64,000 bases of DNA. Origin: Prorocentrum cordatum (lineage: Eukaryota). Positions 32,401 to 50,834 of this stretch are shown piece by piece (the first letter of the stretch is position 1; each line of letters begins with the position of its first letter). The stretch spans positions 1-64,000 of the forward strand of contig CAUYUJ010000268.1 in NCBI GenBank assembly GCA_963575745.1, written 5' to 3'. The position numbers and the translations under genes were made by a program. Under the pieces are notes generated by a model that was not told the DNA's origin, ran no database searches, and saw only the letters and a program-made list of their open reading frames with translations.

Positions 32401-32723
32401 GTCGTCGCTGTTTCGTCGTTGTCTCGTTGTTTCGTCGCTGTGTCATTGTTTCGTCGTTGATTCGTTGTTTCGTCGTCGATGGCCGCAACGGCTTACATCT
32501 GTAACCCGCTTCGGCTGACCTCCGCGCCCCTTGCGGGCGGCCCCCCGCGCACCCTGCACAAGGATACCCACCGAAGGCGATGCCCATCACGACGGCACCC
32601 ACAACTGCATATGGGCGGGCCCTTCGCCTGGACAACGTTTAGGGGCTTACATCTGGCGGACTTCAACGAAGCAGCTACGTTGGCCGGGGTTCCCCAGCGA
32701 CGAAAAACGAGTATACTCATCAC

Positions 32724-32919
32724 TGTGTATGGAACCCGTGTAATACCCTCATATATACTCCTTATCCTTACCTCTCCCGCACCTGGCCGTTTGGGCTCAG
32801 GTACTGAGTTGGAGCGATCGTACCTTGATCGCTTGGGAGGGAAAGATATCCATCTATCCCTCCATCTCTCTACCAACGGATCAGGGGTTCTGTACTCTTG
32901 TACTTCAACCCCATACACA
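32724..32919 (+). repeat. 5' LTR (196 bp)
   Basis: TGTGTATGG...CCATACACA (9-bp terminal inverted repeat); four substitutions relative to the 3' LTR. Confidence 0.97.
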
Positions 32920-32931
32920 GGTTATCAGCCC
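32920..32931 (+). promoter_or_regulatory. Primer-binding site of the tRNA-half type (GGTTATCAGCCC)
   Basis: Abuts the 5' LTR. It lacks the TGG start complementary to tRNA CCA and instead resembles the GGTTATGRGCCC PBS of copia/Ty5, which pairs with the initiator tRNA-Met anticodon arm. Confidence 0.75.
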
Positions 32932-32983
32932 TTTAACGCTCACCTTCACCGACTCGCCCGCGGTGACCTTGCATGCGAGCCCA

Positions 32984-35900: not shown

Positions 35901-37951
35901 GCCAGGACAGCCGTGGCCGATCGCCATCCCGCGGATCAGGAAGCCAACGGTCTTCACAACGCGGGGGGTTTCGCTACGCAAGCGATTCACGACAGGGACG
36001 TGGCAACCGACGCCAATACGACCGATCCCGTTCGACATCCAGGAGGTCCCAAGACTCTCGCAGCCAATCGAGAAGTCGTTACGACAGATCTTCGAGATCT
36101 ACCTCCCGAGGACGAGACAATCGTGGCGGCGGACGCGGCAGTCCACGCGGCCGTGATAGATCATATGGCAGTGACAAAGGACGTGGCAAGCGGTATCCGA
36201 GCCGCGGATCGTCCCGTGGTTCACCCAACACTAGAGCACGTTCTCCTGCCAACTTTAGACGTTCACGTCATTCAGACCGCAGTTACGTCATCCGTGACAA
36301 GACCCGCATGGCCAACACTAAGGCCACAGCGACAGCTACCAAGACACGTCGTCGGATACGCTTCGACGTACGCAACGTGGACTACTACTTCCATACCAGA
36401 TCTGGCAGAGCCAGACTGGACAGATGGAAAGAGCTGCCGAATGAGGGCGACATCGTCAAAGTACCAGATCCATTACCACAAAAATGGTGGGATGATAGTG
36501 CAGAAGCCTTACGAGAATGTCAAAAAGAGGCACAACTATGGTACGACGAACTGTACGACTACCGACACAACAAAGAGTCGGTGGCCACACCAACTGCGAT
36601 CCGAAAGCATGACGACACTGTCAAGCAGTCATCAAAGACTGCCCAGACGACAACAACGACAATGCAAGTCGACACTCCACGTTCGACTGCAGCATTGACA
36701 AGGTCTTGGGTTCTTGATAGTGGCTCTGCCCATCATATTCAGGGAAAACATGAACTTACGCAGACTGAGTCGAATCGCATATCTATTCGCGAAGAGCATA
36801 TTCTGGAAACTGCAAATGGTGATCGTACCGTCAACGAGCACTACGACATACGGCTACCCGAGGTTGGACTGCATAGTTCAGCCCTTGCTTTACCAGACTG
36901 CCCATCATTACTATCAGTTGGAAAATTGATTGAGGTTGATGGCTTTCGACAGCTTTGGGATCCTGAGCTGGGCTACATGCTTCAGGATCCGGGGGGCCAA
37001 TGGTATAAGATTCCAGTCAACAATCGAGTGCCAGAGTTACGACTCGACGACTTAACACGGATACCACCACCACGTTTATGCACTTCGTCAGCACCCCGCC
37101 GTCGTCAGCGAAAGCGTTCATCCGCCCGCTGTAACGACACTTGTTGGCGCTGCAAAACTACAGAGCAACCAACCACTGCAGACGAGCTACGACCCCACAT
37201 AGGGACCTGCCCCAAGAGACCACATGTCGGAGAGGGAGGAGGAGCACGGACCATCACGGTCGAAGAATCTCCCGACACACGCACAGACGAGCCCAGCGTG
37301 GACACAACCACCGACTCGCCTACGTCTCAGATGCAGTGTTCTCCTCCACAATGCGGGGGGTTCGATATAGCTCAAGCAGACAACGACATACCGACAGAGA
37401 CATCCACACGGACGCATCCAGACAACGATCGAGTTCTGCCCAACAGACAAAAGAAACCGATCGACCCGATGCATTACATGACTCACAGCCCAAAACATCC
37501 CGACTGTGAGATCTGTTCTCGTACGATGGCACAGAATGCCCCGTGTAGACGACAGCACAAACCACATCCACCGGCAGACCCCACCGAAGAGGATAACGCC
37601 TACGAGGCTTTTGTCCCGAAGAAGTTCGGTGAGGCTCTAACTGCCGACCATATCGTACTGGCCAAAGACGATGCCGCGGACAAACATGGCGACAAATATG
37701 CACTCGTTGTCCTTGACAGATATACTGGCATCTTCATGGCCTACCCAGCGCTACACAAAGACGCAGCTACTACAAAGGCATCCTTTCAACAGTTCATCGC
37801 CGCGAACGATGAGGTGAAGCATATCTACACAGACAACTCTGGAGAGCTTCAGAAAGCTTGCCGCCAACTGGGATGGAGACACGACACGAGTACGCCACAT
37901 CGTCCACAGACAAATGGATTGATTGAGCGCGTTGTCAAAATTGTCATTCCT
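32984..37951 (+). CDS. gag-pol: Copia polyprotein part 1: coiled-coil Gag, three CCCH zinc fingers, RS-rich tract, aspartic protease, integrase HHCC and DDE core
   Basis: First ATG after the PBS. CCCH fingers at 35546-35845, WVLDSGSAHH at 36707, HYMTHSPKHPDCEIC at 37472, LTADH..IYTDNSGE..NGLIER. The coding frame switches at ~37952 (one extra T); unshifted, the ORF stops at 38101. Confidence 0.9.
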
Positions 37952-37952
37952 T

Positions 37953-40900
37953 GGTACCAGAGCTGTGTTACATATGTCTGGTCTGGGACACGAATGGTGG
38001 AAAGAGGCCATGCAAGCCTTTTGCTGTGGACACAACTTTGTGCATACATCCACGGGCGTCGCTGCCCTCAACGAGGAGCATGCAGAAAAGACAGCTCATG
38101 AAATAAGATTTGGCGAAAGCTTTCCTGGGCACTGCATACCATTCGGTGCTCGGATATTTTGGAAATGCCTCAACCCCGAGATTAACAACGAGACTGCAAA
38201 GTTTAAAGAAAATACTCGGGAAGGGTTATTCATGGGATACCACTTACACTCTGGTGGACGATGGTCAGGTGACTACCTTGTTTTGGACACGGCTACATAC
38301 GCCAAGAATCCTGATGGTGATCTGTGTCATGTGCACAGAGTCAAAGACATCATCATTCCTGATGGCAGGTTCACCTACCCCGTGCAAGATGGTACTCTGC
38401 GACATCATAACCCTGAGGCACACGACGAGGTGAAGGCATCTACTTCTCGCCCCTTGGGTGACAAGCCAATGCCTGATCCTCCACTTTCTTACCCTAAAGA
38501 ATGGGATGATCCGTCTATGATGACGACGGAAGATAACGCTATTGATATCCAGACATCGGCTTCTGAAGTTGCTGCACCAGCGCCGGAGCCAGACTACTGG
38601 GAACAGCGTGGATATTGCGTCATCAGACACATTCGTACCCCAAGAAAGAAACTATTCATCCCAACGGACGACGTCATGAATATACCGGTACCTGTTGACC
38701 AACTCGACGTGACACGAGATTTCAAAACGACTTCTACTTTCGAAGGCGAAAGTAACTTCCGAGATGTTTGGGATGGTGTTAGCGCCAACGACCACAGGGA
38801 GCTGAGCGAGCCGTGGACAGGCACGATACAGTTCTATGAGCTTCCAAAAATAACGCCAGACGGCAAAATGGTGGTTCGTGGACGCGAGACACGCGTGCAG
38901 ACTACCACACGTCCTGATCACGTTCTTCCCGAGCATTGGAAAACACTTTCCCGTGGACAGCAAAAGAAAGAGATCGATTACGCCAACGACGTTAAACGAG
39001 CCCGTGAGATTCGTGATCGTGCTGCATTGAGAGTGTGGACAAGACAGGATAAACAGGTCAACAATTTCCGTACTACTACATCAGGCGGACCCACCTGGAA
39101 TACTGTGGAACGACGGATTACATACGACACTGACAATGGCGACGTCATCCGCGACGAGAATGTCAAAGGCGTGACAAACAAAGAAATACTGTATGCCAAA
39201 TTACCTGGTGGGCCACGTGACATTACCACGGTACTATACTACCGTCAACTACCACAACAGCACGATGGAGAAGAACGTGCTTTGGTATTTGTGGATAATG
39301 AAGGAACCGACTTTGGGACTTTGAACCCGCTCATACGCAAGTTCACCCAGTCGGTAGCAATACCAACCATGCCACGTGAGACCAACTACATGCCGGCACA
39401 CAGAGATAAAATACCAGATTCGACATGGTCACGCCCAGCATTAGTTACCAGAAACCTGAGTAAGAAAGAAGTTGCCGCAGAACCACGTGCACAAGAAGCC
39501 CTACGAAAAGAATACGAGAGATTGGAAAAGAAACAAACATGGATGTTGGAGACTGTTGCAGAAAAAGCTGACATTGAGTCACAAGCTATTCGCAATGGAA
39601 CAAAGGTGCATTTCTTCAATATATTGGAATTATCTTCAGTCAAACATGAAGAACTTCCTCCTGATCTACGTAAATTCAAGGGCAGAGTGGTGGTTCAGGG
39701 CAATACAGGCAAAGATGAAACTGGTTTGGCCGCCATATTCGCCGACGCCGCTTCCAGTGCTTCGCATATAGAGGCTTCCAAACTTTGCGATGCTACTGCG
39801 TTATTACCGCAATATGCGGGAGAGCAAAGTGACGCACCTGGAGCTTACACGCAGGCATTATTATACGGCGACGGACGAATTGATCCAGTTGATACTTGGA
39901 TTACTATACCTAAATGGCGACAACCGACATCATGGTCAAAATACAATAACCCAGTGTGCCGATTGCGATTGGCACTATACGGACACCCTCTTGCAGGTGT
40001 CTTTTGGGAACGAAAATGCCGTACATGCTTGGAAAGCGTCGGTTTCGAGCCTATTTCAGGATGGGAATGTGTATGGAGACACAACAAACTGGGACTGATA
40101 CTTTCAGTATATGTGGACGATTTCAAATTGGCCGGCCCAGCTCATAATCTACAGACTGGTTGGGATTATATTCGTAAAAGCGGTATCGATTTGGATCCAC
40201 CTACTCCATACTCACAATATTTGGGTTGTGGACAACAAGCATATGACGTACCGCAGAGCATCTTCGACAAAAGAATGTCCACAATACGCCCTATGCTACC
40301 TGCACACAACGAGAAAGAATACAATACGGCAAAACACGTTCGTGGCATTCGACATGACATGCTTGGTTTTACAGATCAGTGCATTGAGCGGTACCTGGAA
40401 TGCGCCTCCAAGCGCGCCCAGGGAACAGGGTCACGTCGGAAACGATCCGACTCGCCGAGGGCTTCGCGATCCAAATCGCCATCCTCCTCCGGGTCGGTCG
40501 CCAGACCTACTAGTGTGCTCAACGCACGGACAAGATCATCCAGCCCAGCAAAATCGGTCGACACAACTTCTACCAATACCATACCCGCCACATACCATGA
40601 TCTACCCGACGCAGAGACCCCTGGCATCGAGGACACCTCCTTCACTGAGTCCGACTATTCAGACGAGGGCGTTCTCGGCCAGGACGCGGCAAGTGTACTA
40701 ATGAAGATCCTGTACTTGGCACGTTGCTGTCGTTTCGATCTTCTACATCCGGTATGTATGTTGGCCAGAGAAATTACCAAATGGAATACTACATGTGACA
40801 AACGTCTACATCGGTTGATATGCTACATCAAAACGACGCGTACACATTGCTTACACGGATGGATAGGCGATTCATCAGACAAGTTATCCATCATGCTCTT

Positions 40901-43900
40901 CACTGACGCCTCGTTCGCTGATTGCATTACATCATCCAAATCCACTACCGGTGTTTTTGCTGCGCTTGTTGGACCCAATACGTTCTTTCCAGTCAACGCT
41001 GTATGTAAGAAACAAACGGTTGTTTCACATTCATCTACTGAATCGGAGATCGTTGCTCTCGATTCCGCACTACGACTGGAAGGGTTACCACTACTATCAT
41101 TCTGGGAAGCCGTGGTGGGAGTTGCCAAAACATGCAAAGAGAAGAATACATGCCTGAGTTGCCATCGACACGTTGACCCGGCGATGTGTCCTACATTGGC
41201 AGCCAAAAAGAAGCGTAAACCATCGCCTCGCAAGGCACCCCCTACTCGGGGATCTTCTCCTAGCCGTAGGCAACTACCGCTAAATACGGATTTACCTACG
41301 ACTCCAAAGAGACGTACAATATCCCATGAAGGTACCGTACTACACGTGGATCCAGAGCCAGCTCCAGAGATCAGTGCACCGAAAGTACGACTCATCGTCC
41401 TGGAGGATAACCAGGCCGTTATCAAAATTGTCCAAAAGGGACGTACACCAGCACTTCGTCATCTTCATCGTACTCATCGTATCAATCTGGATTGGATATG
41501 CGAAACATGTCAAATTGAACATATCGAGCTTAAATATGTAGGAACAAAAGAGCAGATCGCAGATATGATGACCAAACATTTCGAGACCAAGAAAGCAGAC
41601 CTTTGGAAGGACCTCTTGGAACACTCGCTTATTTTTCCTGTTACTCCGATACAATGTCCGCCGATACGAGGGCCTCGGAGGCCCGACGGTTTACCTCATG
41701 AAGCGGAACCTCCTAAATTGAATGGATGCCCAGAAATATGCAAGATATTGCTGACGGAAAAAGAAAGATGGGGCGAGGTAGGATCAGAATGCGGATTTCA
41801 GTGTGTTGGACAAGCTAACCATGAGGGACTATGTGCATGCATGTACCACTATGGCGTACCAGCCGCAGATACTGCGTCGCGCACACCTCGTTCACGCGCA
41901 CGTTCACCGCACGGTAGACATCCTCGCCATCCTCCCTCACCTCAACGAGATGCAGAGAGAGTTAGGACATTGATTATTCGTTCACACCGCAGCAATTTTA
42001 CGACTCGAGCTACAAAGCTTACAAGCATCCTGTTTGCCGCTTGCGAGGCGAACATAAGTGAGATCGGTTCTAATCCCGACCCCTCCATCCACGAGATGGA
42101 TCAGGCACAGCCGCTCAACCTCGTCGGCTGGCCCATCGGCTACGACAAGGAGTACGACCCGAACGCCAGGGACGATGACCGCGTGGGCTTTGCGTACCAC
42201 GCTCAAACTGGTCGTCCTCGTGATCCCGAAGATGGTTACATATACATACATCAACGGCGTGCCGATCGGAGCGGAGAATTTGATCTTCGCGTACCCGACG
42301 AGTCTTCTATCCGTGAACTTGCCCGCTTCGCGTCCGTCGAGGCTAAGAAATGGGCCAGCACTGAGAGTGGATCCGTCGGCGGCAACGCCAACTACGAGTA
42401 CAACACGTTCACAGCTACGCCGTGGCTATCTTTCATGCGTGCTATGTGTATGATTTCCAGCCTTTTCAATCGCAATCCTTCAGTACAAGATAGTGTTCGT
42501 GGACTACATGATGATTTGAATGCGACGATCCCAGGATCAGACCGCAAATGTCCACCATCAAACTTTACTACAATGATACTGAAGACGGAGTGGATGATGA
42601 TTCACAACGATTGGTCCAAAATTGGCAGTGCAGTTCTGGGACAATACACCGAGGACAGCGTTACGGATACGCAAAACTATTACAACAATGGTCTGAGTGC
42701 ACCATCCGATGTATACCAGAATGGATTGGTAACGCCATGCTATGCTCCTAAAATTGATCGTGCAATGGCCAAGCTACCTACTCGTCCACCTGGCATCGCC
42801 AGGACATCGGATACATCTGGGCACATCGGTCATATCGTCGAGGATAACTTGGTCACCAACACGAGAGCTTTTTCCGACCTTACCCAAACAAAGAAGTTCC
42901 GCCGCAAGCTTACTACATGGTTGACTGCGCGCGGAGGCTTTGGAAGTATCGGATCAAACTCCAAGACGGTGGCAACACCATCCGACCATCCGAATGGTTG
43001 GGTGGCGATATTGGATGATCCACAAGAGACAGAGCGTACCTATCGTTGGACACCATACAACGAGGGCAACGACTTCTTCGGCGACGCTGCTGACCACATG
43101 GGTTCGAATGATCCTGGCATGACTCCTGGCAATGATGTTGACCCATTCGAGCTGGACCACGCAAAATACAGTGCTTTCTGTGGTGGTCGCTTGGTTTCTA
43201 CCCTATTGTCAGACAATGGGTGGCACTCCCTCGTACAAGAGGACTTGGGACTACTATTACATCATGCATTTGGGCCATCGGGTCATGCGTACAAATGGAC
43301 CAACTTGTACACTGATTCAACATGGATTATGCATCCGAAGAAAGGGGCTAAGGGTGCAAAACACAAGAAGTACCCCACTTTCGGCATCGACGAGCTCAAC
43401 GCTGCCCAGAAGAGAATCGACCTCGCCAAAGCATCAAATACTGCTCTTGTACCGCTATTCATGCCGTGCCTTAACCGCGCGGAATACATGGGTGGCGCTA
43501 CTCTTGAGCACCTGTCGACCATGATCCGCGACGACATCATGATGTGGGCATTCTCTTTTGGCAATTACAGGGAATGGTTCAGACAGAATGACACGCCGAT
43601 CGGTCAAGATTGCGTTCTCTTGCCTGAAGCTGGTTATGAGGGCGTACGATACGGAATGGAGGAACTACGCAAGCAACGTTTCGAGAAAGAGGAAAGCCGT
43701 ATCAACGCTCTTCTCAACAATCAGTTTGAGAACACTCTCGAGCAGCGCAATATGATCAGGAAGATCCGCGAAGCCAGAGGCCTCATGTTTCAAAGCGACA
43801 ACGCTTCCATCAAGAAGTGGCGCGAGCTGAACGAGACCATCTGGGAATACTGGGCCAATGATTTCCCATCATCCATAAAACAAAGACACTATCACAGGGG

Positions 43901-46900
43901 ACTCAATGCCATGGTAGTATGGAGTGCGAACGACATCGCATGTGCTAATCCTGGACAGAACACCATCGACATGCGCCGACATCACAGTCGTGCTCCTACC
44001 AACGTACACGAGCTCCAAAAGATGGAATGTGAGGGCGGCGTCCCGACGCTCATGCCCGTACACGTGCTCGTGGACGTATCACGTTTTGTCGATGTGATGC
44101 AGTATTTCCGCTGCCCCACGGTCATGGGACCTGGAAAAGCAGCGCAATGGGGCGCACACCCGAACTTTGATCACCACACGAGCGACTTGATCACTATCAT
44201 GCAGAACCGTGGTATCACTGTTCTTCCATCCGACCATTGGGTGGATACGTACGACAGGGTTACCCCACAGGCTTGGCACGCCAAACAGAACAACCATAAC
44301 ATGGCAATGTTTACAACGCAATTCTGCGACGCAGTATGCTATCGCAATTTTTGCGCATTGATACAGTCTCTTCCTTCTCAGCCATATCCATTCAGGCCGC
44401 CATTGCTGACTTCTGTCACGGACAACCAGGCCTACACTCAGGCCAAGGAAATCATGGCAGCCCTCGACTTCAGAGAAAAGTTGACAAACGAATGGAAAAG
44501 AGACCTCAGCCTCACAACATTGATGACACAGACGGCAAACGAGATGGCTCATTGTGCGTGGATGGCGTCATGTGCCGAGGGCACATTGCCGGCATCACTG
44601 CCTGCCGAGACGGGCGACACGACTGAGCCGACTCCTGGAAGGTCTACACGTACGCCAGCAACGGACCCTAGCGATCCTGACCAAACCCTTCCTGATAATG
44701 ATCCATGGGTTATGGCATACAATGACTTATTCCAGTACCTTATGCTGTTGATCAAAGAATACCCTGGGGCTTGGGCATCTTGGCATTCTCTTGAGAAAGA
44801 TGAACTTCTAGAACCCAAGATCGTCAAAACAGTTGAAGATGCACATGCAGTTACTTGGGTTGTATTCGAGCAATTCTTACGTCAGATCAAAGAGTTGGAT
44901 GGAGACGATAATGCGACCAAATCAAGACTCATTGCAGAAGAAAACAGATTGTCTTCTCACCGCATCGGCCCAGCTGCCGAGAACGAGAAGAACATCGAGG
45001 CATGCAAAACATTCTTCAAACAGAATGCACTGGATCGAGTGGCTTTGGGTCATGACCCTAATGTTCCTACATCCGTATGGAGGGCAGCTGATGACACAGC
45101 ACAGCCAGCCCCACCAGGCCCATTGCCTGATCCACTGCAACCTGGACCGCAATCGATCAAAGCGTCGCAACCATCGACTCCAGAGCCTAAAGCAGAACAA
45201 CAACCAGCAGATCAGCTCCCAAAAGCTGAGGCGGTACCGATCCCTGATGACGGCACCGACCTTGAGGCAATGGAGCTGGAGGCAACTCCTGCTGAGGAGG
45301 AGCCTTCTCCACATGAGATGAATATATTGTCATGGCAGGACAGTTGTGAGCGTTCCATGCACGAGGATACCAGCAAGCTCGGGATCTTCGACAACTCATG
45401 CACTATTCGCGAATGGAAGCTACAGTATGGCGTCAAAGATGAACATCCATACATGTGCCCAATGTTGCGGGGCACGAAAGCGACCAATGGATTTGCCTGC
45501 ATCGAAGACCAAGAGTGGTACGAGCAGCTACTGCATGATGATAGTGTAATTGCTCATGCGCCTGACATTGCACAATCTGGTTGTTTCCCAGAATGGAAAT
45601 GGATACCATTACCACATTACGACGATGTACGTTATGGTCCTGAGCTAATTGATGAAGAATGGCTGGGAACAAACAAATACATGAGCAAAGACATCACGAC
45701 TATGTTACGCCACGAGATTCACTACAAAAAGTTTTGGATCAACCAATTTCATGACAGACGTATTAATATCTGGGACAAAACAACAAAGAATGATTGGAAG
45801 ATTCCAAGCAATTGGAAATCATTTAAAGAAATGGTTGAATGGAAATTCCGAGATCGCAAAGAAAGACACAATGGACCATCCATGGAAGCGGCAGTGGCAC
45901 ATTTCAAGAAAGACGGTGAAAATGATGGATACACCGATTGGAACGACTACTATCCGATATTCATTATTCGTGCGTTCCAGAAGCATATTGACCCGCAGAA
46001 AAACAGAATCGAGATATACGCCAAGCCGATTCCTGACGGAGGTGACCCCAGCACTTTTGACTGGAACAGCGTTATTGCTATTCGGTGCGTCGGTGGTCAC
46101 AGTTGTGTCAACCCATCTTCAAAGCCATGGAACATGGGATGGGAGAGCTTACAGTGGACAGATATCAAATATCTCCATCATGGAACAGCATCCCGCGCCT
46201 GGAAGAACATATTGAAGACAGGGATCATTCCTGGATATGTTGAACCACATTCTCAGAGAGACAGAACTTACAAACCATCGCAGCGATCCGAGGCATTCTT
46301 CAGTTCTAGCACATATTTGAACAATGTTCAAAAGAACCCACATACTTCAGTGGAATCGTACAAGTTCAACAGCTACAAGAACGAAGTCGAGCTGGTGATC
46401 AACATGGAGATCGCCACAAAAGCAGGTTGCAGATTTTGGTTGGGTGCTCAGGGCGCTATCATGACTGAGGACGTGGTACCCGCTGCGGCAATTATTGCAA
46501 TTCGCCGCCTCAAACCACACCACATGCATGGCCAGCAGCTGTGGCCAGACGGCGACCCATGGGACTACCCGCCATTGGCAGCCAGAGAGCCATTGAGCAA
46601 GTACGAGATTTGCGCCTGCCTTCCTGGAGAACTTATTGACGACCCACCTGGATTGGCACCTATCGACCCCGACCAAGACATGGAGCCTCCAAGGACGACG
46701 CCAGCATCAGCACCCTCGGCCAGGCCGGGGGAAACCCCTGCTGGCCGTACATCCGCAGAGGACGCCTTGGACGAGCAAATAGTACGTGCTATGATCCAGG
46801 AGACCAATCACAAAGCAGATGATAAAGAATGGTTGATTGCATTATCACATTGTCGTGAAGCTCTTCGACCAATCACAGCAAAGATCATGCAAAAAGATTG

Positions 46901-47735
46901 GGGTCGTCGTCCTGCATTTAACGATGTTCGAATGGGCGACTTCATTGTCATTAAGAATTGGGGTTCTACCAAATGCTTCCACTACGACAACCATTGGCCC
47001 AAAGGCAATCACAATACCAAGATTGCCTTGTCCAAGGGACACATATATGGTCCAATCATCCATTTCGGCATCTTCGACAAGTTCTTTGCGGTACAAGTAC
47101 CTATTCTCAACTACGGTTTACGATGGGTAAATATCTGGTATAATGACAAAAGCATGCCCCTCAAGGGCGTTGTATTTGCATTGCCGATTCGTATCGAAGA
47201 ACACGCCATCGATCCAACATGGATGGAGACTGCCCTGAAAGGCCCGACATCTTGCAGCGAGGGGATACTGCAGCACAAGGTTAGCGGCAGCTTACCATAC
47301 CTTGGAATGCCTAGCATCCATAGACCACGTATTCCGCGTACACCACCAAGAAGGCCCGCTCCACGGACACCTGATCCAGACGAGCTGGTGGCCACACCTG
47401 CCGAGGACAACGCTCAGACGGGCGACATTCCTCGACAGGATACAGCATCATCGCATGATCCACTGATCACCGTAATCGTGGACATATCAAATATCGTTCT
47501 TACTGCAGATGAGAAAGCTGCGAACGACAACATGAGGGCAGACCTCTCGGCAGACATCCAAGCAGAAGAGCAGATCGAGGCAAGCATCCTCGATAACATC
47601 ATTGATCCGCCATCGAATTTCCGTGATCATCCAGACTACGACCCCGACGAGGATTCAAGATGGATTACACAGTCTGATGATTGCCGCGTGTATTGTTGGA
47701 CATCGGCGTTATTGGTGGATTCGCCTATGATCTAG
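37953..47735 (+). CDS. pol: Copia polyprotein part 2: integrase C-terminus, RT, RNase H, then an extension with SGNH-like and Tpt1/KptA domains
   Basis: EGLFMGYH; KFKGRVVVQGN, LRLALYGHP and YVDD (40110-40121); RNase H FTDASFAD..SSTESE..EDNQA..ADMMTK (40899-41576); frame stays open to TAG at 47733-47735. Confidence 0.92.
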   Translation, partial: GTRAVLHMSGLGHEWWKEAMQAFCCGHNFVHTSTGVAALNEEHAEKTAHEIRFGESFPGHCIPFGARIFWKCLNPEINNETAKFKENTREGLFMGYHLHSGGRWSGDYLVLDTATYAKNPDGDLCHVHRVKDIIIPDGRFTYPVQDGTLRHHNPEAHDEVKASTSRPLGDKPMPDPPLSYPKEWDDPSMMTTEDNAIDIQTSASEVAAPAPEPDYWEQRGYCVIRHIRTPRKKLFIPTDDVMNIPVPVDQLDVTRDFKTTSTFEGESNFRDVWDGVSANDHRELSEPWTGTIQFYELPKITPDGKMVVRGRETRVQTTTRPDHVLPEHWKTLSRGQQKKEIDYANDVKRAREIRDRAALRVWTRQDKQVNNFRTTTSGGPTWNTVERRITYDTDNGDVIRDENVKGVTNKEILYAKLPGGPRDITTVLYYRQLPQQHDGEERALVFVDNEGTDFGTLNPLIRKFTQSVAIPTMPRETNYMPAHRDKIPDSTWSRPALVTRNLSKKEVAAEPRAQEALRKEYERLEKKQTWMLETVAEKADIESQAIRNGTKVHFFNILELSSVKHEELPPDLRKFKGRVVVQGNTGKDETGLAAIFADAASSASHIEASKLCDATALLPQYAGEQSDAPGAYTQALLYGDGRIDPVDTWITIPKWRQPTSWSKYNNPVCRLRLALYGHPLAGVFWERKCRTCLESVGFEPISGWECVWRHNKLGLILSVYVDDFKLAGPAHNLQTGWDYIRKSGIDLDPPTPYSQYLGCGQQAYDVPQSIFDKRMSTIRPMLPAHNEKEYNTAKHVRGIRHDMLGFTDQCIERYLECASKRAQGTGSRRKRSDSPRASRSKSPSSSGSVARPTSVLNARTRSSSPAKSVDTTSTNTIPATYHDLPDAETPGIEDTSFTESDYSDEGVLGQDAASVLMKILYLARCCRFDLLHPVCMLAREITKWNTTCDKRLHRLICYIKTTRTHCLHGWIGDSSDKLSIMLFTDASFADCITSSKSTTGVFAALVGPNTFFPVNAVCKKQTVVSHSSTESEIVALDSALRLEGLPLLSFWEAVVGVAKTCKEKNTCLSCHRHVDPAMCPTLAAKKKRKPSPRKAPPTRGSSPSRRQLPLNTDLPTTPKRRTISHEGTVLHVDPEPAPEISAPKVRLIVLEDNQAVIKIVQKGRTPALRHLHRTHRINLDWICETCQIEHIELKYVGTKEQIADMMTKHFETKKADLWKDLLEHSLIFPVTPIQCPPIRGPRRPDGLPHEAEPPKLNGCPEICKILLTEKERWGEVGSECGFQCVGQANHEGLCACMYHYGVPAADTASRTPRSRARSPHGRHPRHPPSPQRDAERVRTLIIRSHRSNFTTRATKLTSILFAACEANISEIGSNPDPSIHEMDQAQPLNLVGWPIGYDKEYDPNARDDDRVGFAYHAQTGRPRDPEDGYIYIHQRRADRSGEFDLRVPDESSIRELARFASVEAKKWASTESGSVGGNANYEYNTFTATPWLSFMRAMCMISSLFNRNPSVQDSVRGLHDDLNATIPGSDRKCPPSNFTTMILKTEWMMIHNDWSKIGSAVLGQYTEDSVTDTQNYYNNGLSAPSDVYQNGLVTPCYAPKIDRAMAKLPTRPPGIARTSDTSGHIGHIVEDNLVTNTRAFSDLTQTKKFRRKLTTWLTARGGFGSIGSNSKTVATPSDHPNGWVAILDDPQETERTYRWTPYNEGNDFFGDAADHMGSNDPGMTPGNDVDPFELDHAKYSAFCGGRLVSTLLSDNGWHSLVQEDLGLLLHHAFGPSGHAYKWTNLYTDSTWIMHPKKGAKGAKHKKYPTFGIDELNAAQKRIDLAKASNTALVPLFMPCLNRAEYMGGATLEHLSTMIRDDIMMWAFSFGNYREWFRQNDTPIGQDCVLLPEAGYEGVRYGMEELRKQRFEKEESRINALLNNQFENTLEQRNMIRKIREARGLMFQSDNASIKKWRELNETIWEYWANDFPSSIKQRHYHRGLNAMVVWSANDIACANPGQNTIDMRRHHSRAPTNVHELQKMECEGGVPTLMPVHVLVDVSRFVDVMQYFRCPTVMGPGKAAQWGAHPNFDHHTSDLITIMQNRGITVLPSDHWVDTYDRVTPQAWHAKQNNHNMAMFTTQFCDAVCYRNFCALIQSLPSQPYPFRPPLLTSVTDNQAYTQAKEIMAALDFREKLTNEWKRDLSLTTLMTQTANEMAHCAWMASCAEGTLPASLPAETGDTTEPTPGRSTRTPATDPSDPDQTLPDNDPWVMAYNDLFQYLMLLIKEYPGAWASWHSLEKDELLEPKIVKTVEDAHAVTWVVFEQFLRQIKELDGDDNATKSRLIAEENRLSSHRIGPAAENEKNIEACKTFFKQNALDRVALGHDPNVPTSVWRAADDTAQPAPPGPLPDPLQPGPQSIKASQPSTPEPKAEQQPADQLPKAEAVPIPDDGTDLEAMELEATPAEEEPSPHEMNILSWQDSCERSMHEDTSKLGIFDNSCTIREWKLQYGVKDEHPYMCPMLRGTKATNGFACIEDQEWYEQLLHDDSVIAHAPDIAQSGCFPEWKWIPLPHYDDVRYGPELIDEEWLGTNKYMSKDITTMLRHEIHYKKFWINQFHDRRINIWDKTTKNDWKIPSNWKSFKEMVEWKFRDRKERHNGPSMEAAVAHFKKDGENDGYTDWNDYYPIFIIRAFQKHIDPQKNRIEIYAKPIPDGGDPSTFDWNSVIAIRCVGGHSCVNPSSKPWNMGWESLQWTDIKYLHHGTASRAWKNILKTGIIPGYVEPHSQRDRTYKPSQRSEAFFSSSTYLNNVQKNPHTSVESYKFNSYKNEVELVINMEIATKAGCRFWLGAQGAIMTEDVVPAAAIIAIRRLKPHHMHGQQLWPDGDPWDYPPLAAREPLSKYEICACLPGELIDDPPGLAPIDPDQDMEPPRTTPASAPSARPGETPAGRTSAEDALDEQIVRAMIQETNHKADDKEWLIALSHCREALRPITAKIMQKDWGRRPAFNDVRMGDFIVIKNWGSTKCFHYDNHWPKGNHNTKIALSKGHIYGPIIHFGIFDKFFAVQVPILNYGLRWVNIWYNDKSMPLKGVVFALPIRIEEHAIDPTWMETALKGPTSCSEGILQHKVSGSLPYLGMPSIHRPRIPRTPPRRPAPRTPDPDELVATPAEDNAQTGDIPRQDTASSHDPLITVIVDISNIVLTADEKAANDNMRADLSADIQAEEQIEASILDNIIDPPSNFRDHPDYDPDEDSRWITQSDDCRVYCWTSALLVDSPMI
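45684..46505 (+). other. Tpt1/KptA-family NAD+-dependent RNA 2'-phosphotransferase domain within the polyprotein
   Basis: SKDITTMLRH, KNRIE, IRCVGGHS, YLHHGT..ILKTGIIPG, RSEAFFS and LVINMEIATKAGCRFWLGAQGAIMTEDVVP match the family motifs SKxxSxxLRH, KxRF, IRAxQGHS, LxHGT..I..GL, RxHVHxS and F..S.NGV.L...VP in order. Confidence 0.85.
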
Positions 47736-49766
47736 ATGAGGCAGATCATTGAGATACACAGTGGCGCAGACAGAATCGTAATGGACAAAATTCAGTCACA
47801 TCTACAATTTGAAATTCGATTTGGATCGAAAGCATGGAACGCGGAGTCATATCATTTGAACTACAATCATACCCACAAGTGGGCACATGACTTACCCAAT
47901 TGTGGTGCAGATCACTTCTTCAAAAAGTTGGTACACTACCTCGACCCAGAGACTATCGAGGAGTCGACCACTGGCATCTTTCAATGGATTTCCAAAGTAT
48001 ACCAGAACATCTTGAAAGATAGTATTGTGGAGCTACCAGATTTCGCCAAGGAAGTCATCCATGACAACCATCCTGCACTTCAGGCATTGCGTGACCTATA
48101 CAAAAATTGTACTGCGACATACGGTGATCCAGAGTTTCCTGCGTGGGAAGAGCTGGTGGAAACACCTGCTGCGCCTCGAGAGGAAGGCGCTGAGCAGGAT
48201 ATTCCCCAGGACCCAGGCAGTGTTGCGTCTGCAGCTCCCGATCAGGAGACTATGGTACGCATCATAGCTGAACAGACGGGACTCAAGCGCGAGGAGGGCG
48301 ACAACGAGGCTACCTTGCAGAAGCAGGCTCGCCGTCTTCGTGAGGAGAACGTATGCCATGGCGGTACTGAGGATACCGACAACGTCAAGATAGAGTACAA
48401 AGGACTGCCAGGGGAAAGGTTGTCTCGGATCGAGATCGAGGGTTTAAGCAGATCGATCGCTTCCAGACCAAACACCGAGATCAATCGTGAGGCGATCAAT
48501 CAGATCGGTCAGAGCCTCGCTCGCGGTCAGGACACCCGCTGGGGATCCCGCGATCACCTGACTTCGGCAGGGGCCCCCGAGACGATCTTGCATCCCATAC
48601 CGCTCTGTAACAATTGCGGTCGAGATCTGCCCCTCGGTATCGTCACAGGTGACGGCACACTCTGTGATATATGTTGGCAATACACTGTGGCCGTAGGCGC
48701 CACAGGTAAGAGCACCGCCACACAGAGTGACCTCGCGTACCTCCAGAAGTTGACGAACTGGATCAAGACGACGTTGTCCGAGGACCAGGTCGCGAGATAC
48801 ATGAAGGATGGCGCACATGTCATTATGGCGGGTGCGCGATCCCCCATAGGCACAGAGAAAGATCAGTTGCGGAGATTGGCCAATACGTCCAAGAAGAGGT
48901 ATCAGAAGTGGGTCGAAGCCGGTAGCCCGCCTGCACACGAATGCAGATTAATGGGCGAATCCGAGGACGACCGACCTCTGTACTACCCATACGCCAATCT
49001 CATTCAACGCTTTCTCAACGACCTCAGATTCCATCATCAGATGACAGGAGCCCGCGTGAATGTCGGCAAGAAGCCCTGGAGAGTCGAGGACATGCGCGAC
49101 GCGTGGGACATCCTTGACGTCAGTATTAGGACAGGACAGGCTGGTCGGAGAAAGTGGTGGCTGAACGAGGGACGCATTGACAGGCAGACGCGGCAGGCGC
49201 GCGGACTGATTACGGTTTCTCTCCCTCGAGGGGACGGAACCCGTGAACAGTTCACCCAGCGCAAGCTTGCCGCGATTGCCAACGAGCTGATAGGCTCCCT
49301 CGATCCGTCACACACTGACCAGAGGGGGGGTAGTACAGGGATGAGAACCGATCCAGATACACACTCCCAACAGTCCGATGACGCCATGGAGCCGCGGCCG
49401 CCGCCGCGGCCGCCGCCGCGCCCTGCTCCTGGCGACGCCGCTGCATCCAGCGCCTCAGGCGCAGAGGACTACATGCCCGCGATGCCGCGCGCCAAGAGAG
49501 CACGTACATCTGATTACGCTGCTTACTGGCGCCACAATCTCGAGGACAGCGATTGGGGTCTTCGATACTGGAGTTATTACATCAAATGTTGGATCTACAT
49601 TGCGATCAACAACGACGAGTATGTGTACATCCAGGATATCACGTACAACGATTGGTTCCGCAACTGGATCCCGAGGACCACTTGGGAAACGTTTACGACA
49701 AGCTATGCGACGTACAACGGCCAGAGGGTGTGGGACCGCAGGTTCTACAAGGACGGCGACGCGTAG
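47736..49766 (+). CDS. Copia polyprotein part 3 (676 aa), in frame after a single TAG; CxxC..CxxC zinc ribbon and W/Y-rich C-terminus
   Basis: Same frame as pol with a TAG-ATG junction; LCNNCGR..LCDICW; ends in tandem stops TAG TGA inside the element. Confidence 0.8.
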   Translation: MRQIIEIHSGADRIVMDKIQSHLQFEIRFGSKAWNAESYHLNYNHTHKWAHDLPNCGADHFFKKLVHYLDPETIEESTTGIFQWISKVYQNILKDSIVELPDFAKEVIHDNHPALQALRDLYKNCTATYGDPEFPAWEELVETPAAPREEGAEQDIPQDPGSVASAAPDQETMVRIIAEQTGLKREEGDNEATLQKQARRLREENVCHGGTEDTDNVKIEYKGLPGERLSRIEIEGLSRSIASRPNTEINREAINQIGQSLARGQDTRWGSRDHLTSAGAPETILHPIPLCNNCGRDLPLGIVTGDGTLCDICWQYTVAVGATGKSTATQSDLAYLQKLTNWIKTTLSEDQVARYMKDGAHVIMAGARSPIGTEKDQLRRLANTSKKRYQKWVEAGSPPAHECRLMGESEDDRPLYYPYANLIQRFLNDLRFHHQMTGARVNVGKKPWRVEDMRDAWDILDVSIRTGQAGRRKWWLNEGRIDRQTRQARGLITVSLPRGDGTREQFTQRKLAAIANELIGSLDPSHTDQRGGSTGMRTDPDTHSQQSDDAMEPRPPPRPPPRPAPGDAAASSASGAEDYMPAMPRAKRARTSDYAAYWRHNLEDSDWGLRYWSYYIKCWIYIAINNDEYVYIQDITYNDWFRNWIPRTTWETFTTSYATYNGQRVWDRRFYKDGDA

Positions 49767-50489
49767 TGAGTCGGCCGCAAGGCCCACTGCTCAAGAGCAG
49801 AACTTCCGTTCATCAAAGTTCGCCTTGAGCGGTGGCTAATACATTCTTTTAGGCCACTTCAATCTTTCACACAAGTGGCCATACACACATATAGATATCT
49901 TTTGCGATCACCGAGGCAGCCTCCTAAGGAGCAACGCCAACGGGAGTCGCCAAACAGATTTTATACATCATTTTCGTGTTCATCAACACGACATTTTCTC
50001 CTGGCCAGGTACTTGCTTTAACGCAGATTCGCATTTCTTTCAGGATCGCGTTCGTCAACACGATCTTGGCATACATTTGCTTTTAGGCAGACTTGTGCTT
50101 GATTTCAAGATTGTGTTCGTCAACACGATCTTAGCATGCATATGTTAACAATTTAACAATATTGCGTCGAGAATAATCTGATAGCTGGTGGCAACACCTG
50201 CCTCGCAAATCTTGCGAGGCGGTTTACGTTGCCTTGGTGCTCAGATCTTCTTTCTCCGCCTACCTTTGCCTCATTCTTCTCCTCCCTCGAGTGCCGAAGC
50301 GTTTTGGGGGGCGCACCGAGGGGCGGCAAAGACCGCCTGGAGAAGAAAAAGAGACCCAAGGTATCTCTTCTTACCTCACTTCGCAGCTGTGGCTTCGCTG
50401 ACTTTTAGCCCAGCTGCCTTTCAGACTTAAGGTAAAGGAGTTCTGAGGTTACGGGTTCCATCCTCCTGATCCCGAGTCCTGCCTTCACG

Positions 50490-50510
50490 GGCGGGATTCG
50501 GGACGGGGGG
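50490..50510 (+). other. Polypurine tract
   Basis: G-rich ..GGGACGGGGGG immediately 5' of the 3' LTR. Confidence 0.8.
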
Positions 50511-50706
50511 TGTTTATGGAACCCGTGTAATACCTTCATATATACTCCTTATCCTTACCTCCCCCGCACCTGGCCGTTTGGGCTCAGGTACTGAGTTGGA
50601 GCGATCGTACCTTGATCGCTTGGGAGGGAAAGATATCCATCTATCCCTTCATCTCTCTACCAACGGATCAGGGGTTCTGTACTCTTGTACTTCAACCCCA
50701 TACACA
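50511..50706 (+). repeat. 3' LTR (196 bp)
   Basis: Direct repeat of 32724-32919, followed by the ATCAC TSD. Confidence 0.97.
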
Positions 50707-50834
50707 ATCACCTGCAGCACGGGCTTGTAATTTTAAAGTTGGCATGGGAAAGTGGCTGTGGCAAGTGTCGTAAAGCGCATGCGAATTAGTTGTATTCCGT
50801 ATTCGTAATTCGTCTCACTAGGACTGTTCGGAAC

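What the first reader, a model, noticed from the sequence alone, without database searches (positions are those of the whole stretch)
45684..46505. Tpt1/KptA RNA 2'-phosphotransferase fused into Pol: a possible primer-healing or end-capping system
Seen: all Tpt1 motifs are present in order, with candidates for the Arg-His-Arg-Arg catalytic tetrad (LRH 45705-45713, R 46005, R 46284) and the HGT NAD-binding motif, in frame with RT and RNase H. Known: Tpt1 uses NAD+ to remove RNA 2'-phosphates in tRNA splicing, and some members ADP-ribosylate phosphorylated DNA/RNA ends. Inference: this element primes from a cleaved tRNA fragment, whose end may carry a blocking phosphate. The domain could therefore heal the primer, repair element RNA cut by host nucleases, or cap and protect cDNA ends. 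I know of no described Copia-Tpt1 system.
Basis: partly seen in the sequence, partly recalled or inferred. Interest (0 to 1): 0.92.

Follow-up and report, generated by a model that had tools for sequence, protein, structure and literature searches.

The report
Tpt1 RNA-repair domain inside giant Copia retrotransposon
An 18-kb Copia-type jumping gene of a microbial eukaryote carries, fused to its reverse-transcriptase protein, a real relative of the NAD-dependent RNA 2'-phosphotransferase Tpt1/KptA, a combination I did not find described, and what it does for the element is still unknown.

Summary
Window 45684-46505 lies in one 3270-codon open frame (37923-47735) that also encodes a Copia-type reverse transcriptase. 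The frame sits in a complete LTR retrotransposon (32724-50706) with 196-bp LTRs, a 5-bp target duplication ATCAC, a polypurine tract and a non-TGG primer-binding site.

**Tpt1/KptA identity.**
- Pfam PF01885 scores 29.4 bits (cut-off 26) on the excised domain.
- Profile-profile comparison with E. coli KptA gives probability 95.8%, E 7.5e-9.
- Foldseek's first 22 listed PDB ranks are all Tpt1/KptA.
- The VIA-align second look gives Z 12.5, rmsd 2.0 Å.
- Relatives keep them: R 10/10, H 10/10, R 8/12, R 16/19.
- Caveat: only the NAD lobe is matched directly. The RNA lobe is enlarged, poorly modelled and placed by motifs.

**Family.** It is rare: 45 hits among 1.84 billion representatives, mostly fragments. 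Thousands of 90-100% identical contig pieces cover the whole element in four public runs. No relative was long enough to show reverse transcriptase and Tpt1 together.

**Function.** It is inferred only. My first choice is RNA 2'-phosphate healing of primer or template, with 5'-phosphate ADP-ribose capping as the rival. This is a new variant of a known kind, of moderate to high interest.

The parts
32719..32723 (+). Left target-site duplication, ATCAC
   Evidence: Sequence read. The same five bases follow the 3' LTR.
32724..32919 (+). 5' LTR, 196 bp, with inverted termini TGTGTATGG...CCATACACA
   Evidence: Repeat family D12, alignment, blastn 192 of 196 identical to the 3' LTR.
32920..32934 (+). 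Primer-binding-site candidate GGTTATCAGCCC(TTT). It abuts the LTR and is not the TGG (tRNA 3' end) type. Its complement reads like an anticodon stem, loop and two more bases.
   Evidence: Sequence. The reading as an anticodon arm is inference; no host tRNA was available.
32825..38101 (+). ORF1, 1758 codons: Gag-like region with CCCH zinc fingers (about 35546-35845) and the integrase core (rve, 37679-37906)
   Evidence: Pfam zf_CCCH_4 E 6e-13. Pfam rve E 1.5e-7, 32.0 bits against a cut-off of 32.6.
37947..37950 (+). Frame change inside the integrase, between ORF1 and ORF2. Some contigs in public runs are one base shorter here, which puts both ORFs in one frame.
   Evidence: Three-frame translation, sequence, read-laying table 4 at 37947 and 37949.
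37923..47735 (+). ORF2, 3270 codons: integrase C-terminus, reverse transcriptase, RNase H-like motifs, then about 2000 extra residues that include the Tpt1 domain
39672..40229 (+). Copia-type reverse transcriptase (Pfam RVT_2)
   Evidence: E 2e-7, 31.3 bits against a cut-off of 31.6. Also.
40965..41582 (+). RNase H-like region (motifs DAS..D, SSTESE, EDNQA, ending QIADMMTKHF)
   Evidence: Read; end located. The motif pattern is recalled from Copia elements. Pfam gave no match and PDB sequences gave none.
41583..45683 (+). Pol extension of unknown function (about 1370 residues). It is conserved in sibling fragments.
   Evidence: No Pfam family in overlapping slices. 55 fragments at 60-99% identity. 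Collinear matches of P0035, P0049 and P0043. The AlphaFold model was too poor to use.
45684..46505 (+). Tpt1/KptA-like domain. The enlarged RNA lobe runs about 45684-46067: SK-x6-LRH at 45684-45713 and K-x-R at 45999-46007. The NAD lobe runs 46068-46505: IRCVGGHS, HGT at 46179-46187 and R201 at 46284-46286.
46506..47732 (+). C-terminal tail of ORF2. One stretch resembles, by eye, the N-terminus of relative P0038.
   Evidence: No Pfam family. P0006 continues collinearly to residue 2953. The likeness to P0038 was seen by eye and was not recovered by BLASTP.
47733..47735 (+). TAG stop, followed in the same frame by ORF3
47736..49766 (+). ORF3, 676 codons, in frame with ORF2, no recognised domain
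50500..50510 (+). Polypurine tract GGGACGGGGGG, directly before the 3' LTR
50511..50706 (+). 3' LTR
50707..50711 (+). Right target-site duplication, ATCAC

Best explanation
**Shown.**
- An 18-kb Ty1/Copia-type LTR retrotransposon (32724-50706) inserted as one unit.
- It encodes a two-lobed Tpt1/KptA-family domain as part of a roughly 2000-residue C-terminal extension of its Pol frame.
- The residues that define Tpt1 catalysis are present and are kept in diverged relatives: the Arg-His-Arg-Arg tetrad plus SK, K-x-R and HGT.

**Inferred.**
- The domain is an active NAD+-dependent enzyme that transfers ADP-ribose to a phosphate on a nucleic acid.
- It is made with Pol, so it is present where reverse transcription takes place.
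- Its most likely job is the family's canonical chemistry: removing a 2'-phosphate, internal or 3'-terminal, from RNA that the element needs. That RNA could be its tRNA-derived primer or its genomic template.
- The likely source of that phosphate is cleavage by a metal-independent RNase, followed by opening of the cyclic phosphate or by plant/fungal-type ligation.
- I expect (not checked here) that a 2'-phosphate would block priming or stall the reverse transcriptase.

I put identity as a true Tpt1-family domain of the element at about 0.9, catalytic competence at about 0.6, and this particular role at about 0.35-0.4.
For: **Element**
- LTR pair 192 of 196 identical, identical 5-bp flanks ATCAC, PBS and PPT.
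- Integrase core lies before RVT_2.
- One uninterrupted 3270-codon frame runs from the integrase C-terminus through Tpt1.

**Domain**
- PF01885 at 29.4 bits, cut-off 26.
- 8 of 42 aligned family members hit PF01885. The best is 2.3e-13, and P0043 and P0048 cover profile 6-176 and 15-176.
- hhalign against KptA: probability 95.8%, E 7.5e-9, aligning R201 with KptA R125.
- BLASTP of P0043 against KptA aligns SK..LRH, DKxR and IRAxQGHS.
- All 5 hits of the profile against PDB sequences are Tpt1.
- Foldseek and VIA-align rank Tpt1/KptA first.

**Residue conservation among relatives that cover each site**
- R9 10/10, H10 10/10, R108 8/12, R201 16/19. Two of the three R201 misses have the Arg one residue off in their sequence.
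- S1 10/10, R134 18/18, H166 15/19.
- The tetrad and the SK, K66, H101 and T103 roles are from PMC6333775 (passages).

**Integral to the family**
- Flanks of the domain are collinear in P0035, P0049, P0006 and P0043.
- 55 sibling fragments cover the extension.
- All 30 bins of 32000-50800 are covered in 4 runs of 4 studies, by 1272 to 21749 contig pieces at 90-100% identity.

**Chemistry and precedent**
- A subset of Tpt1 enzymes remove terminal 2' and 3' phosphates (PMC6573784, abstract).
- KptA domains are embedded in polyproteins of a few positive-strand RNA viruses and were proposed to process cleaved RNA ends (PMC9503650, passages).
Against: - No activity, expression or substrate data exist.
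- Only the NAD lobe is matched directly for this copy.
- The RNA lobe has about 50 extra residues between LRH and K-x-R and about 15 between K-x-R and IRxxGGHS. Its first 45 residues are modelled at pLDDT below 50.
- hhalign of the N-lobe subfamily alone paired KptA's KKRF with the window's PSTFDW, not with KNR (probability 75%). The third Arg is therefore not settled.
- The profile against PDB sequences is weak (E 0.07-0.9) and single-sequence phmmer found nothing.
- HGT is HAT in 8 of 19 relatives.
- No partner enzyme (2H phosphoesterase, ligase, kinase, Macro, Nudix) was detected in the element.
- No relative was long enough to show RT and Tpt1 together.
- This copy has a frame change in the integrase and a TAG before ORF3, so it may itself be inactive.
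- Half-tRNA-primed Copia elements without Tpt1 exist (recalled).
Confidence: 0.4

Rival explanations
1. The domain acts as a 5'-phosphate ADP-ribosyl 'capping' enzyme. It stops after step 1 and leaves ADP-ribose on 5'-phosphorylated ends of element cDNA or RNA. This would protect them from 5' exonucleases or from ligation into dead-end circles.
For: The Tpt1/TRPT1/KptA family ADP-ribosylates 5'-phosphate ends of nucleic acids in mammals and bacteria (PMC12678800 and PMC10415124, abstract starts in the listing). The best structural matches include TkoKptA complexes with DNA and 5'-p-ADPR-DNA. From general knowledge, reverse-transcription intermediates carry 5'-phosphate ends after RNase H cuts.
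Against: Nothing in the sequence separates capping from 2'-phosphate removal. All four tetrad residues, including those tied to step 2, are kept. No hydrolase (Macro or NADAR) to reverse a cap was found in the element.
Confidence: 0.2
2. The domain is a passenger: a captured Tpt1 sequence that is inactive, or kept for a non-catalytic role such as binding the anticodon arm of the primer tRNA.
For: The match to the family is weak (29 bits). The RNA lobe carries large insertions. HGT is altered in many relatives, and H139 of GHS is Q in 4 of 16. Many sibling fragments look decayed or frame-shifted.
Against: The catalytic Arg and His residues are kept across relatives that are only 31-77% identical. 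Relatives with a compact RNA lobe hit the Pfam model end to end. The open frame is kept over 3270 codons.
Confidence: 0.15
3. The domain is aimed at the host rather than at the element's own nucleic acids. It would be a conflict function, for example modifying host RNAs or undoing host RNase attack on the translation apparatus, as proposed for phage KptA.
For: Phage and virus KptA are discussed in this light in PMC9503650 (passages). The ADP-ribosyltransferase fold is common in conflict systems, and the lower-ranked fold matches are toxins and DarT.
Against: The fold and residues are those of Tpt1 proper, not of the toxin clades: Z 12.5 against 7.5 or less. No evidence of any host defence is at hand.
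Confidence: 0.1
4. The domain is not part of the retrotransposon: a chance match, an assembly chimera, or a host gene lying between the LTRs of this one copy.
For: No database protein joins RT and Tpt1. The contigs laid are too short to bridge them.
Against: There is a single stop-free frame from integrase to Tpt1. Identical target duplications flank the whole 17,983-bp unit. The extension is repeated at 90-100% identity in four runs of four studies and in 55 sibling fragments. Independent sequence, profile and fold matches all point to Tpt1.
Confidence: 0.03

Closest known systems
Cellular Tpt1/KptA/TRPT1 RNA 2'-phosphotransferases (Pfam PF01885), e.g. E. coli KptA and Clostridium thermocellum Tpt1
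   Same: The NAD-lobe fold matches (Z 12.5, rmsd 2.0 Å over 94 residues, 26% identity). The motifs occur in the same order: SK-x6-LRH, K-x-R, IRxxGGHS, HGT, R-x-E-x-FFS (VHLS in KptA) and FW..G..T. The Arg-His-Arg-Arg tetrad is kept.
   Different: It is not a free-standing protein of about 180 residues but is embedded at residues 2588-2861 of a 3270-residue retrotransposon frame. The RNA lobe is about 65 residues longer. The score against the family model is only just above the cut-off. Activity is untested.
KptA domains embedded in polyproteins of positive-strand RNA viruses (Beihai picorna-like virus, Botrylloides leachii nidovirus) and KptA in jumbo phages, sawfly nucleopolyhedroviruses and Bodo saltans virus (PMC9503650, passages)
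   Same: A selfish replicon that copies RNA carries its own KptA inside a replicase polyprotein. The proposed role there is processing of cleaved RNA ends.
   Different: Those are viruses. That survey has no occurrence of 'retrotransposon' or 'retroelement' in its main text. Here the host replicon is an LTR retrotransposon that primes from tRNA and makes DNA.
LTR and other retrotransposons that captured host enzymatic domains: cytosine methyltransferases in dinoflagellate and charophyte retrotransposons (PMC5890265, passages) and an m6A demethylase domain in orchid Ty3/Gypsy elements (PMC9289625, listing and abstract start only)
   Same: A nucleic-acid-modifying enzyme domain is fixed in a retrotransposon coding region and kept across a family.
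   Different: The enzyme class differs. PMC5890265 states that the abundant Symbiodinium Copia elements lack DNMT, and the text does not mention Tpt1 (0 occurrences).
Drosophila copia and other Ty1/Copia elements primed by a 5' tRNA half (Kikuchi et al. 1986, as cited in PMC10275265; the original was not read)
   Same: Gene order is integrase before RT, with short LTRs, a 5-bp target duplication, and a PBS complementary to the anticodon-arm region rather than to the tRNA 3' end.
   Different: The element is three to four times larger (17,983 bp). It has CCCH instead of CCHC fingers and a Pol extension of about 2000 residues with Tpt1, plus ORF3. The PBS complement reads with anticodon GAU, or IAU if inosine is read as G, not the initiator CAU (inference).

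Membership tests
Tpt1/KptA family (PF01885) | Significant match to the family profile at or above Pfam's gathering score | tested here: met
   The excised domain scores 29.4 bits against 26, E 9.8e-7, but covers only profile 71-176. Within the whole ORF it scores 22.3 bits, below the cut-off. Relatives P0048 (51 bits, profile 15-176) and P0043 (39.2 bits, profile 6-176) match nearly end to end.
Tpt1/KptA family (PF01885) | C-terminal NAD+ lobe with the Tpt1-type ADP-ribosyltransferase fold | tested here: met
   The AlphaFold model has pLDDT mostly 75-98 over residues 150-274, with one block near 54. Every Foldseek row listed up to rank 22 is Tpt1/KptA. VIA-align gives Z 12.5-7.9 and rmsd 1.7-4.8 Å for 19 Tpt1 entries, with other ARTs at 7.5 or less. 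hhalign against KptA gives probability 95.8%.
Tpt1/KptA family (PF01885) | N-terminal winged-helix RNA lobe | tested here: inconclusive
   The motifs SK-x6-LRH and K-x-R are present, and relatives' RNA lobes match Pfam and KptA. For this copy, however, residues 1-45 are below pLDDT 50. Only one VIA-align row reaches back to residue 86, and hhalign of the N lobe alone aligned only from residue 117 on.
Tpt1/KptA family (PF01885) | Arg-His of the catalytic tetrad (CthTpt1 R18, H19; KptA R21, H22) | tested here: met
   R9-H10 lie in SKDITTMLRH. The S-to-R spacing is the same as in KptA (SKFLSFVLRH) and in P0043, which BLASTP aligns to KptA. Both residues are kept in 10 of 10 relatives. The placement for the window copy rests on motif, not on a direct alignment.
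Tpt1/KptA family (PF01885) | Third tetrad Arg in the K-x-R motif (CthTpt1 R68; KptA R69) | tested here: inconclusive
   R108 (QKNRIEIY) aligns with P0043's DKPRYQ by MAFFT, and P0043's with KptA's DKKRF by BLASTP. It is kept in 8 of 12 relatives. But hhalign of the N-lobe subfamily paired KptA's KKRF with PSTFDW instead.
Tpt1/KptA family (PF01885) | Fourth tetrad Arg in the NAD lobe (CthTpt1 R121; KptA R125) | tested here: met
   hhalign pairs R201 (QRSEAFF) with KptA's R in ERHYVHLS. It is kept in 16 of 19 relatives, and 2 of the 3 misses have the Arg one position off.
Tpt1/KptA family (PF01885) | NAD+-dependent removal of RNA 2'-phosphate (or phosphate ADP-ribosylation) | not testable with these tools
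   This needs an enzyme assay or yeast tpt1-delta complementation.
Ty1/Copia LTR retrotransposons | Direct LTRs with TG..CA termini, a target-site duplication, and PBS and PPT next to the LTRs | tested here: met
   196-bp LTRs, 192 of 196 identical. TG...CA termini, ATCAC on both sides, and a PBS candidate and purine tract.
Ty1/Copia LTR retrotransposons | Gene order integrase before reverse transcriptase, with RT of the RVT_2 type | tested here: met
   rve at 37679-37906 (E 1.5e-7, 32.0 bits against 32.6). RVT_2 at 39672-40229 (E 2e-7, 31.3 bits against 31.6). Both are significant by E-value but just under Pfam's cut-offs.
Ty1/Copia LTR retrotransposons | Protease and RNase H domains | tested here: inconclusive
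   No Pfam family on the slices 36272-37100 and 40860-41720 and no PDB sequence match. RNase H-like motifs are seen by eye against a recalled Copia pattern.

The most novel reading that the evidence does not exclude
The element matures its own primer. Its PBS pairs with the anticodon arm of a tRNA, roughly positions 27-40. By the established tRNA-splicing pathway (recalled), that is where the splice-junction 2'-phosphate, the natural Tpt1 substrate, sits, and where anticodon nucleases cut. The Pol-borne Tpt1 would remove a 2'-phosphate from a freshly ligated or cleaved tRNA. That would let the tRNA prime minus-strand synthesis and be copied during plus-strand transfer. This would be a retroelement-encoded primer-healing step with no known counterpart.
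Probability: 0.12. Interest if true: 0.9.

Novelty: new variant of a known kind. Interest (0 to 1): 0.62.

Why it matters
Retrotransposons rarely fix new enzymatic domains, and each case has shown a pressure point in their life cycle, such as chromatin targeting, DNA methylation or RNA demethylation. A conserved Tpt1 domain in Pol would point to RNA-end or phosphate chemistry as a limiting step for a retroelement. That step could be primer or template damage by RNases, ligation scars carrying a 2'-phosphate, or the fate of 5'-phosphate ends. It would also give Tpt1, whose role outside fungal and plant tRNA splicing is still obscure (PMC6573784 abstract), a new natural setting in which substrate and phenotype can be tested. 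Finally, it parallels the KptA domains noted in a few RNA-virus polyproteins (PMC9503650), which suggests convergent recruitment by RNA-copying replicons.

Tried and rejected
**Sequence and database searches**
- Single-sequence phmmer of the domain against PDB sequences gave 0 hits at E up to 1. The same search for the RT-RNase H stretch also gave 0.
- No whole genome is held for the window. The scan holds no earlier findings, by place, words or sequence.
- Word-indexed searches for long proteins carrying the domain found none: 481-2000 aa and 1798-5723 aa. Both tools warn that this is weak evidence.
With A4, 43 pattern matches in metagenome contigs and 74 in viral contigs were found, and none was confirmed by tblastn. 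No sibling locus with DNA context was obtained, so I could not test co-occurrence of Tpt1 with RT or with PBS type, dN/dS, or a phylogeny against host Tpt1.

**The rest of the extension**
- Pfam found no family in slices covering 41580-45683, 46506-47732 and ORF3.
- The ESM Atlas gave no usable hit for residues 1560-2590.
- The AlphaFold model of 42180-44972, with 57 rows in the alignment, reached only mean pLDDT 49. I did not send it to a fold search.
- A motif scan found one Walker-A-like string in ORF3 and no paired HxT, KxDG or GDS signature. I treat the Walker-A string as chance.
- My by-eye idea of an SGNH-like VVWS.ND...D..H pattern around residues 1985-2100 was not tested.

**Public runs**
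- No RNA holder is listed, so nothing can be said on expression.
- The contigs laid are 100-650 bases long, so none bridges RT and Tpt1. Depth differences between the canonical part and the extension are not interpretable for contigs, as the tool states.
- Only 40 of about 900 variant positions were shown, and none lies in 45684-46505. Whether the TAG at 47733 is shared by other copies is unknown.

**Window context**
- Twelve flanking ORFs gave no Pfam family.
- There is no second copy of the element and no solo LTR in the window.

**Literature**
- Searches gave no paper describing Tpt1/KptA in a retrotransposon.
- The supplements of PMC5890265 and PMC9503650 were not opened. They may list domain contents of dinoflagellate Copia elements or further KptA-bearing polyproteins.
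Full report
**1. What is at the coordinates**

Window 45684-46505 translates into 274 residues without a stop. It is part of a 3270-codon open frame, 37923-47735.
- LRH at 45705-45713.
- Arg at 46005 (residue 108, QKNRIEIY).
- Arg at 46284 (residue 201, QRSEAFFSS).
- HGT at 46179-46187.

**2. The surrounding element**

A 196-bp direct repeat lies at 32724-32919 and 50511-50706 (family D12; alignment). It is 192 of 196 identical.
- The repeat starts TGTGTATGG and ends CCATACACA.
- Both copies are flanked by the same five bases, ATCAC.
- A purine run, GGGACGGGGGG, precedes the 3' copy.
- GGTTATCAGCCC follows the 5' copy.

This is a complete LTR retrotransposon of 17,983 bp that inserted as one unit.

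Its coding content is as follows.
- ORF1 (32825-38101) has three CCCH zinc fingers and an integrase core.
- ORF2 continues the integrase and carries an RVT_2-type reverse transcriptase at 39672-40229 (E 2e-7).
- RNase H-like motifs end near 41582. These are seen by eye against a recalled Copia pattern; Pfam is silent.
- About 2000 further residues follow.
- After a TAG at 47733, ORF3 runs on in the same frame for 676 codons.

Integrase before RT, RVT_2 and a 5-bp duplication place the element in Ty1/Copia. The rve and RVT_2 scores are significant but sit just under Pfam's cut-offs. The element is 0.48-0.51 G+C against 0.59-0.70 in the upstream flank.

ORF1 and ORF2 are out of frame within the integrase, near 37947-37950. 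In four public runs some contigs are one base shorter there, which makes one continuous frame (table 4).

**3. Is the domain Tpt1?**

Sequence evidence:
- Pfam PF01885 matches the excised domain at 29.4 bits (cut-off 26, E 9.8e-7), over residues 129-262 = profile 71-176 of 177. Within the whole ORF it scores 22.3 bits.
- An exhaustive phmmer over 1.84 billion representatives found only 45 relatives at E up to 1e-3, most of them fragments of 46-190 residues.
- 8 of 42 aligned members hit PF01885. The best is 2.3e-13, and P0048 and P0043 cover the profile nearly end to end.
- The family profile against PDB sequences returned five hits, all Tpt1, but weak (E 0.07-0.9).
- hhalign of the family against E. 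coli KptA (taken from NC_000913.3) gave probability 95.8%, E 7.5e-9 over 100 columns. It pairs IRCVGGHS, HHGTAS, R201 and FW..G..MT with KptA's IRAVQGHS, YHGTAS, R125 and FW..G..LT.

Structure evidence:
- An AlphaFold model (mean pLDDT 68.6; NAD lobe mostly 75-98; first 45 residues under 50) found Tpt1/KptA structures in every Foldseek row listed up to rank 22.
- In the VIA-align second look, 19 Tpt1 entries led at Z 12.5-7.9 and rmsd 1.7-4.8 Å, at 16-28% identity. Other ADP-ribosyltransferases scored 7.5 or less.

The NAD lobe is therefore Tpt1 beyond reasonable doubt.

**4. The RNA lobe and the tetrad**

Banerjee et al. [quoted passage not shown] They also name S10, K11, K66, H101 and T103.
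- The window has SKDITTMLRH, with the same S-to-R spacing as KptA's SKFLSFVLRH and P0043's SKTVGFVLRH.
- BLASTP aligns P0043 to KptA across SK..LRH, DKxR and IRAxQGHS.
- MAFFT aligns the window's QKNR with P0043's DKPR and P0048's NKPR.

Among relatives covering each site:

| Site | Kept |
|---|---|
| R9 | 10/10 |
| H10 | 10/10 |
| S1 | 10/10 |
| K106 | 9/12 |
| R108 | 8/12 |
| R134 | 18/18 |
| H166 | 15/19 |
| G167 | 10/19 (Ala in 8) |
| T168 | 13/19 |
| R201 | 16/19 |

- Two of the three R201 misses (P0033, P0048) carry ARSE one residue off.
- Of the four R108 misses, P0010 and P0027 run into unrelated sequence there and P0021 does not really cover it.

Against this, the window's RNA lobe is enlarged. 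It has about 97 residues between LRH and K-x-R, against about 47 in KptA, and a 15-residue longer hairpin before IRxxGGHS. It is also poorly modelled. hhalign of the N-lobe subfamily alone paired KptA's KKRF with PSTFDW rather than KNR (probability 75%). The third Arg is therefore probable, not settled.

**5. Is it an integral part of the element?**

- The frame is unbroken from integrase to Tpt1, and the target duplication brackets the whole unit.
- Relatives extend collinearly beyond the domain: P0035 and P0049 about 108 residues upstream, P0006 about 90 downstream. P0043 also matches residues 2052-2098 upstream.
- The 931-residue stretch before the domain has 55 sibling fragments at 60-99% identity. 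54 of them come from one EukProt data set labelled Pyramimonas sp..
- Other relatives come from ENA and JGI metagenome assemblies. One relative is a gene model labelled Prorocentrum cordatum or Polarella glacialis, in which a piece of the RNA lobe is joined to WD40 and phosphodiesterase domains.
- One JGI relative was already named RNA:NAD 2'-phosphotransferase by its source.
- Twenty listed runs of 14 studies hold part of 45000-47000.
- In four runs of four studies, 1272 to 21749 short contig pieces at 90-100% identity cover all 30 bins of 32000-50800. The whole element, extension included, is therefore a high-copy, diversified repeat.

What I could not obtain is any relative long enough to show RT and Tpt1 on one molecule. 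The generality of the 'Copia-Tpt1' architecture rests on this copy plus the coverage pattern.

**6. How it most likely works**

*Shown:* a Tpt1-family domain with the catalytic constellation, conserved across relatives that are only 31-77% identical, and translated as part of Pol.

*Inferred:* it is active and acts on a phosphate of a nucleic acid in the element's replication.

The family's chemistry gives two options.
- (a) Removal of an internal or terminal 2'-phosphate. A subset of Tpt1 enzymes do remove terminal 2' and 3' phosphates (PMC6573784, abstract).

I favour (a), at about 0.35-0.4, for three reasons.
- All four tetrad residues are kept, including those tied to the second, phosphate-releasing step.
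- I expect (not checked here) that a 2'-phosphate on a primer end or in a template would obstruct reverse transcription.
- KptA in RNA-virus polyproteins and phages has been interpreted the same way (PMC9503650).

The PBS is complementary to a tRNA anticodon arm; its complement reads GGG-CUGAUAA-CC. That is the region where splice-junction 2'-phosphates and anticodon-nuclease cuts occur (established pathway knowledge, recalled). This makes the primer a natural candidate substrate, but it is a coincidence of place, not evidence. The element encodes no recognisable cyclic phosphodiesterase, ligase, kinase, Macro or Nudix partner. Any pathway would have to lean on host enzymes or on the unassigned 1400-residue region.

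Rivals are 5'-phosphate capping (0.2), an inactive or merely RNA-binding passenger (0.15), a host-directed conflict function (0.1), and artefact or chance (0.03).

**7. Comparison with what is known, and novelty**

- Captured enzymatic domains in retrotransposons are known. Examples are DNMT in dinoflagellate and charophyte elements (PMC5890265) and an m6A demethylase in orchid Gypsy elements (PMC9289625, listing only).
- KptA inside viral polyproteins is known (PMC9503650).
- A 5' tRNA half primes Drosophila copia (Kikuchi 1986, via PMC10275265).
- I found no report of Tpt1/KptA in a retrotransposon. PMC9503650 has no occurrence of 'retrotransposon' or 'retroelement' in its main text.

I therefore rate it a new variant of a known kind: an LTR retrotransposon with a new accessory enzyme. 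The function is unproved, and this particular copy carries a frame change and an in-frame stop. Interest is 0.62.

Noticed in passing
window 37947-37950: ORF1 and ORF2 are out of frame inside the integrase. In four public runs some contigs are one base shorter here, which gives a single continuous Gag-Pol frame. The window's form has most of the contig depth in three of the four runs, and about half in X5 at 37949 (table 4).
   Followed up: partly
window 47733-49766: A TAG ends ORF2 and is followed at once, in the same frame, by a 676-codon ORF3 with no recognisable domain. This could be read-through, a recent stop, or a separate protein. I could not see whether other copies share the TAG.
   Followed up: partly
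window 35546-35845: The Gag-like part of ORF1 carries three CCCH zinc fingers (Pfam zf_CCCH_4, E 6e-13) rather than the CCHC knuckles usual in retroelement Gag proteins.
   Followed up: no
window 32920-32934: The PBS complement reads as an anticodon stem-loop with anticodon GAU. That would fit a tRNA-Ile(IAU) if inosine is copied as G, rather than the initiator tRNA-Met used by Drosophila copia. No host tRNA was available to check.
   Followed up: partly
window 41583-45683: About 1370 residues between RNase H and Tpt1 have no Pfam, Atlas or usable AlphaFold assignment, yet are conserved in 55 sibling fragments. A VVWS.ND ... D..H pattern shared with relative P0043 (residues about 1985-2100 of ORF2) looked SGNH-hydrolase-like by eye and was not tested.
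   Followed up: partly
window 45423-45428: Most contigs in the four runs have one base more after 45423 and one base fewer at 45428. The window copy therefore reads two codons differently from most other copies, just upstream of the Tpt1 domain.
   Followed up: no
window 52146-64000: A unit of about 6 kb is duplicated in tandem (families D5-D19, spacing 5934-6288, 81-98% identity). The region has strongly positive GC skew.
   Followed up: no
window 50838-51900, 52778-53021, 63781-64000: Dense short-period repeats, with steps of 9, 12 and 15 bases, directly after the element. They stopped read laying at first.
   Followed up: no
window 25715-25994: A tandem array of 20-bp units (family D4).
   Followed up: no
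protein P0030 (relative): A gene model labelled Prorocentrum cordatum or Polarella glacialis joins a piece of this family's RNA lobe (SK..LRH..K-x-R) to WD40 repeats and a cyclic-nucleotide phosphodiesterase. It is probably an element remnant swallowed by gene prediction.
   Followed up: partly
window 45000-47000 in public runs: Near-identical sequence is held by runs labelled marine, freshwater, estuary, plankton and urban metagenomes as well as three coded organisms (20 rows, 14 studies). Only four runs were laid.
   Followed up: partly
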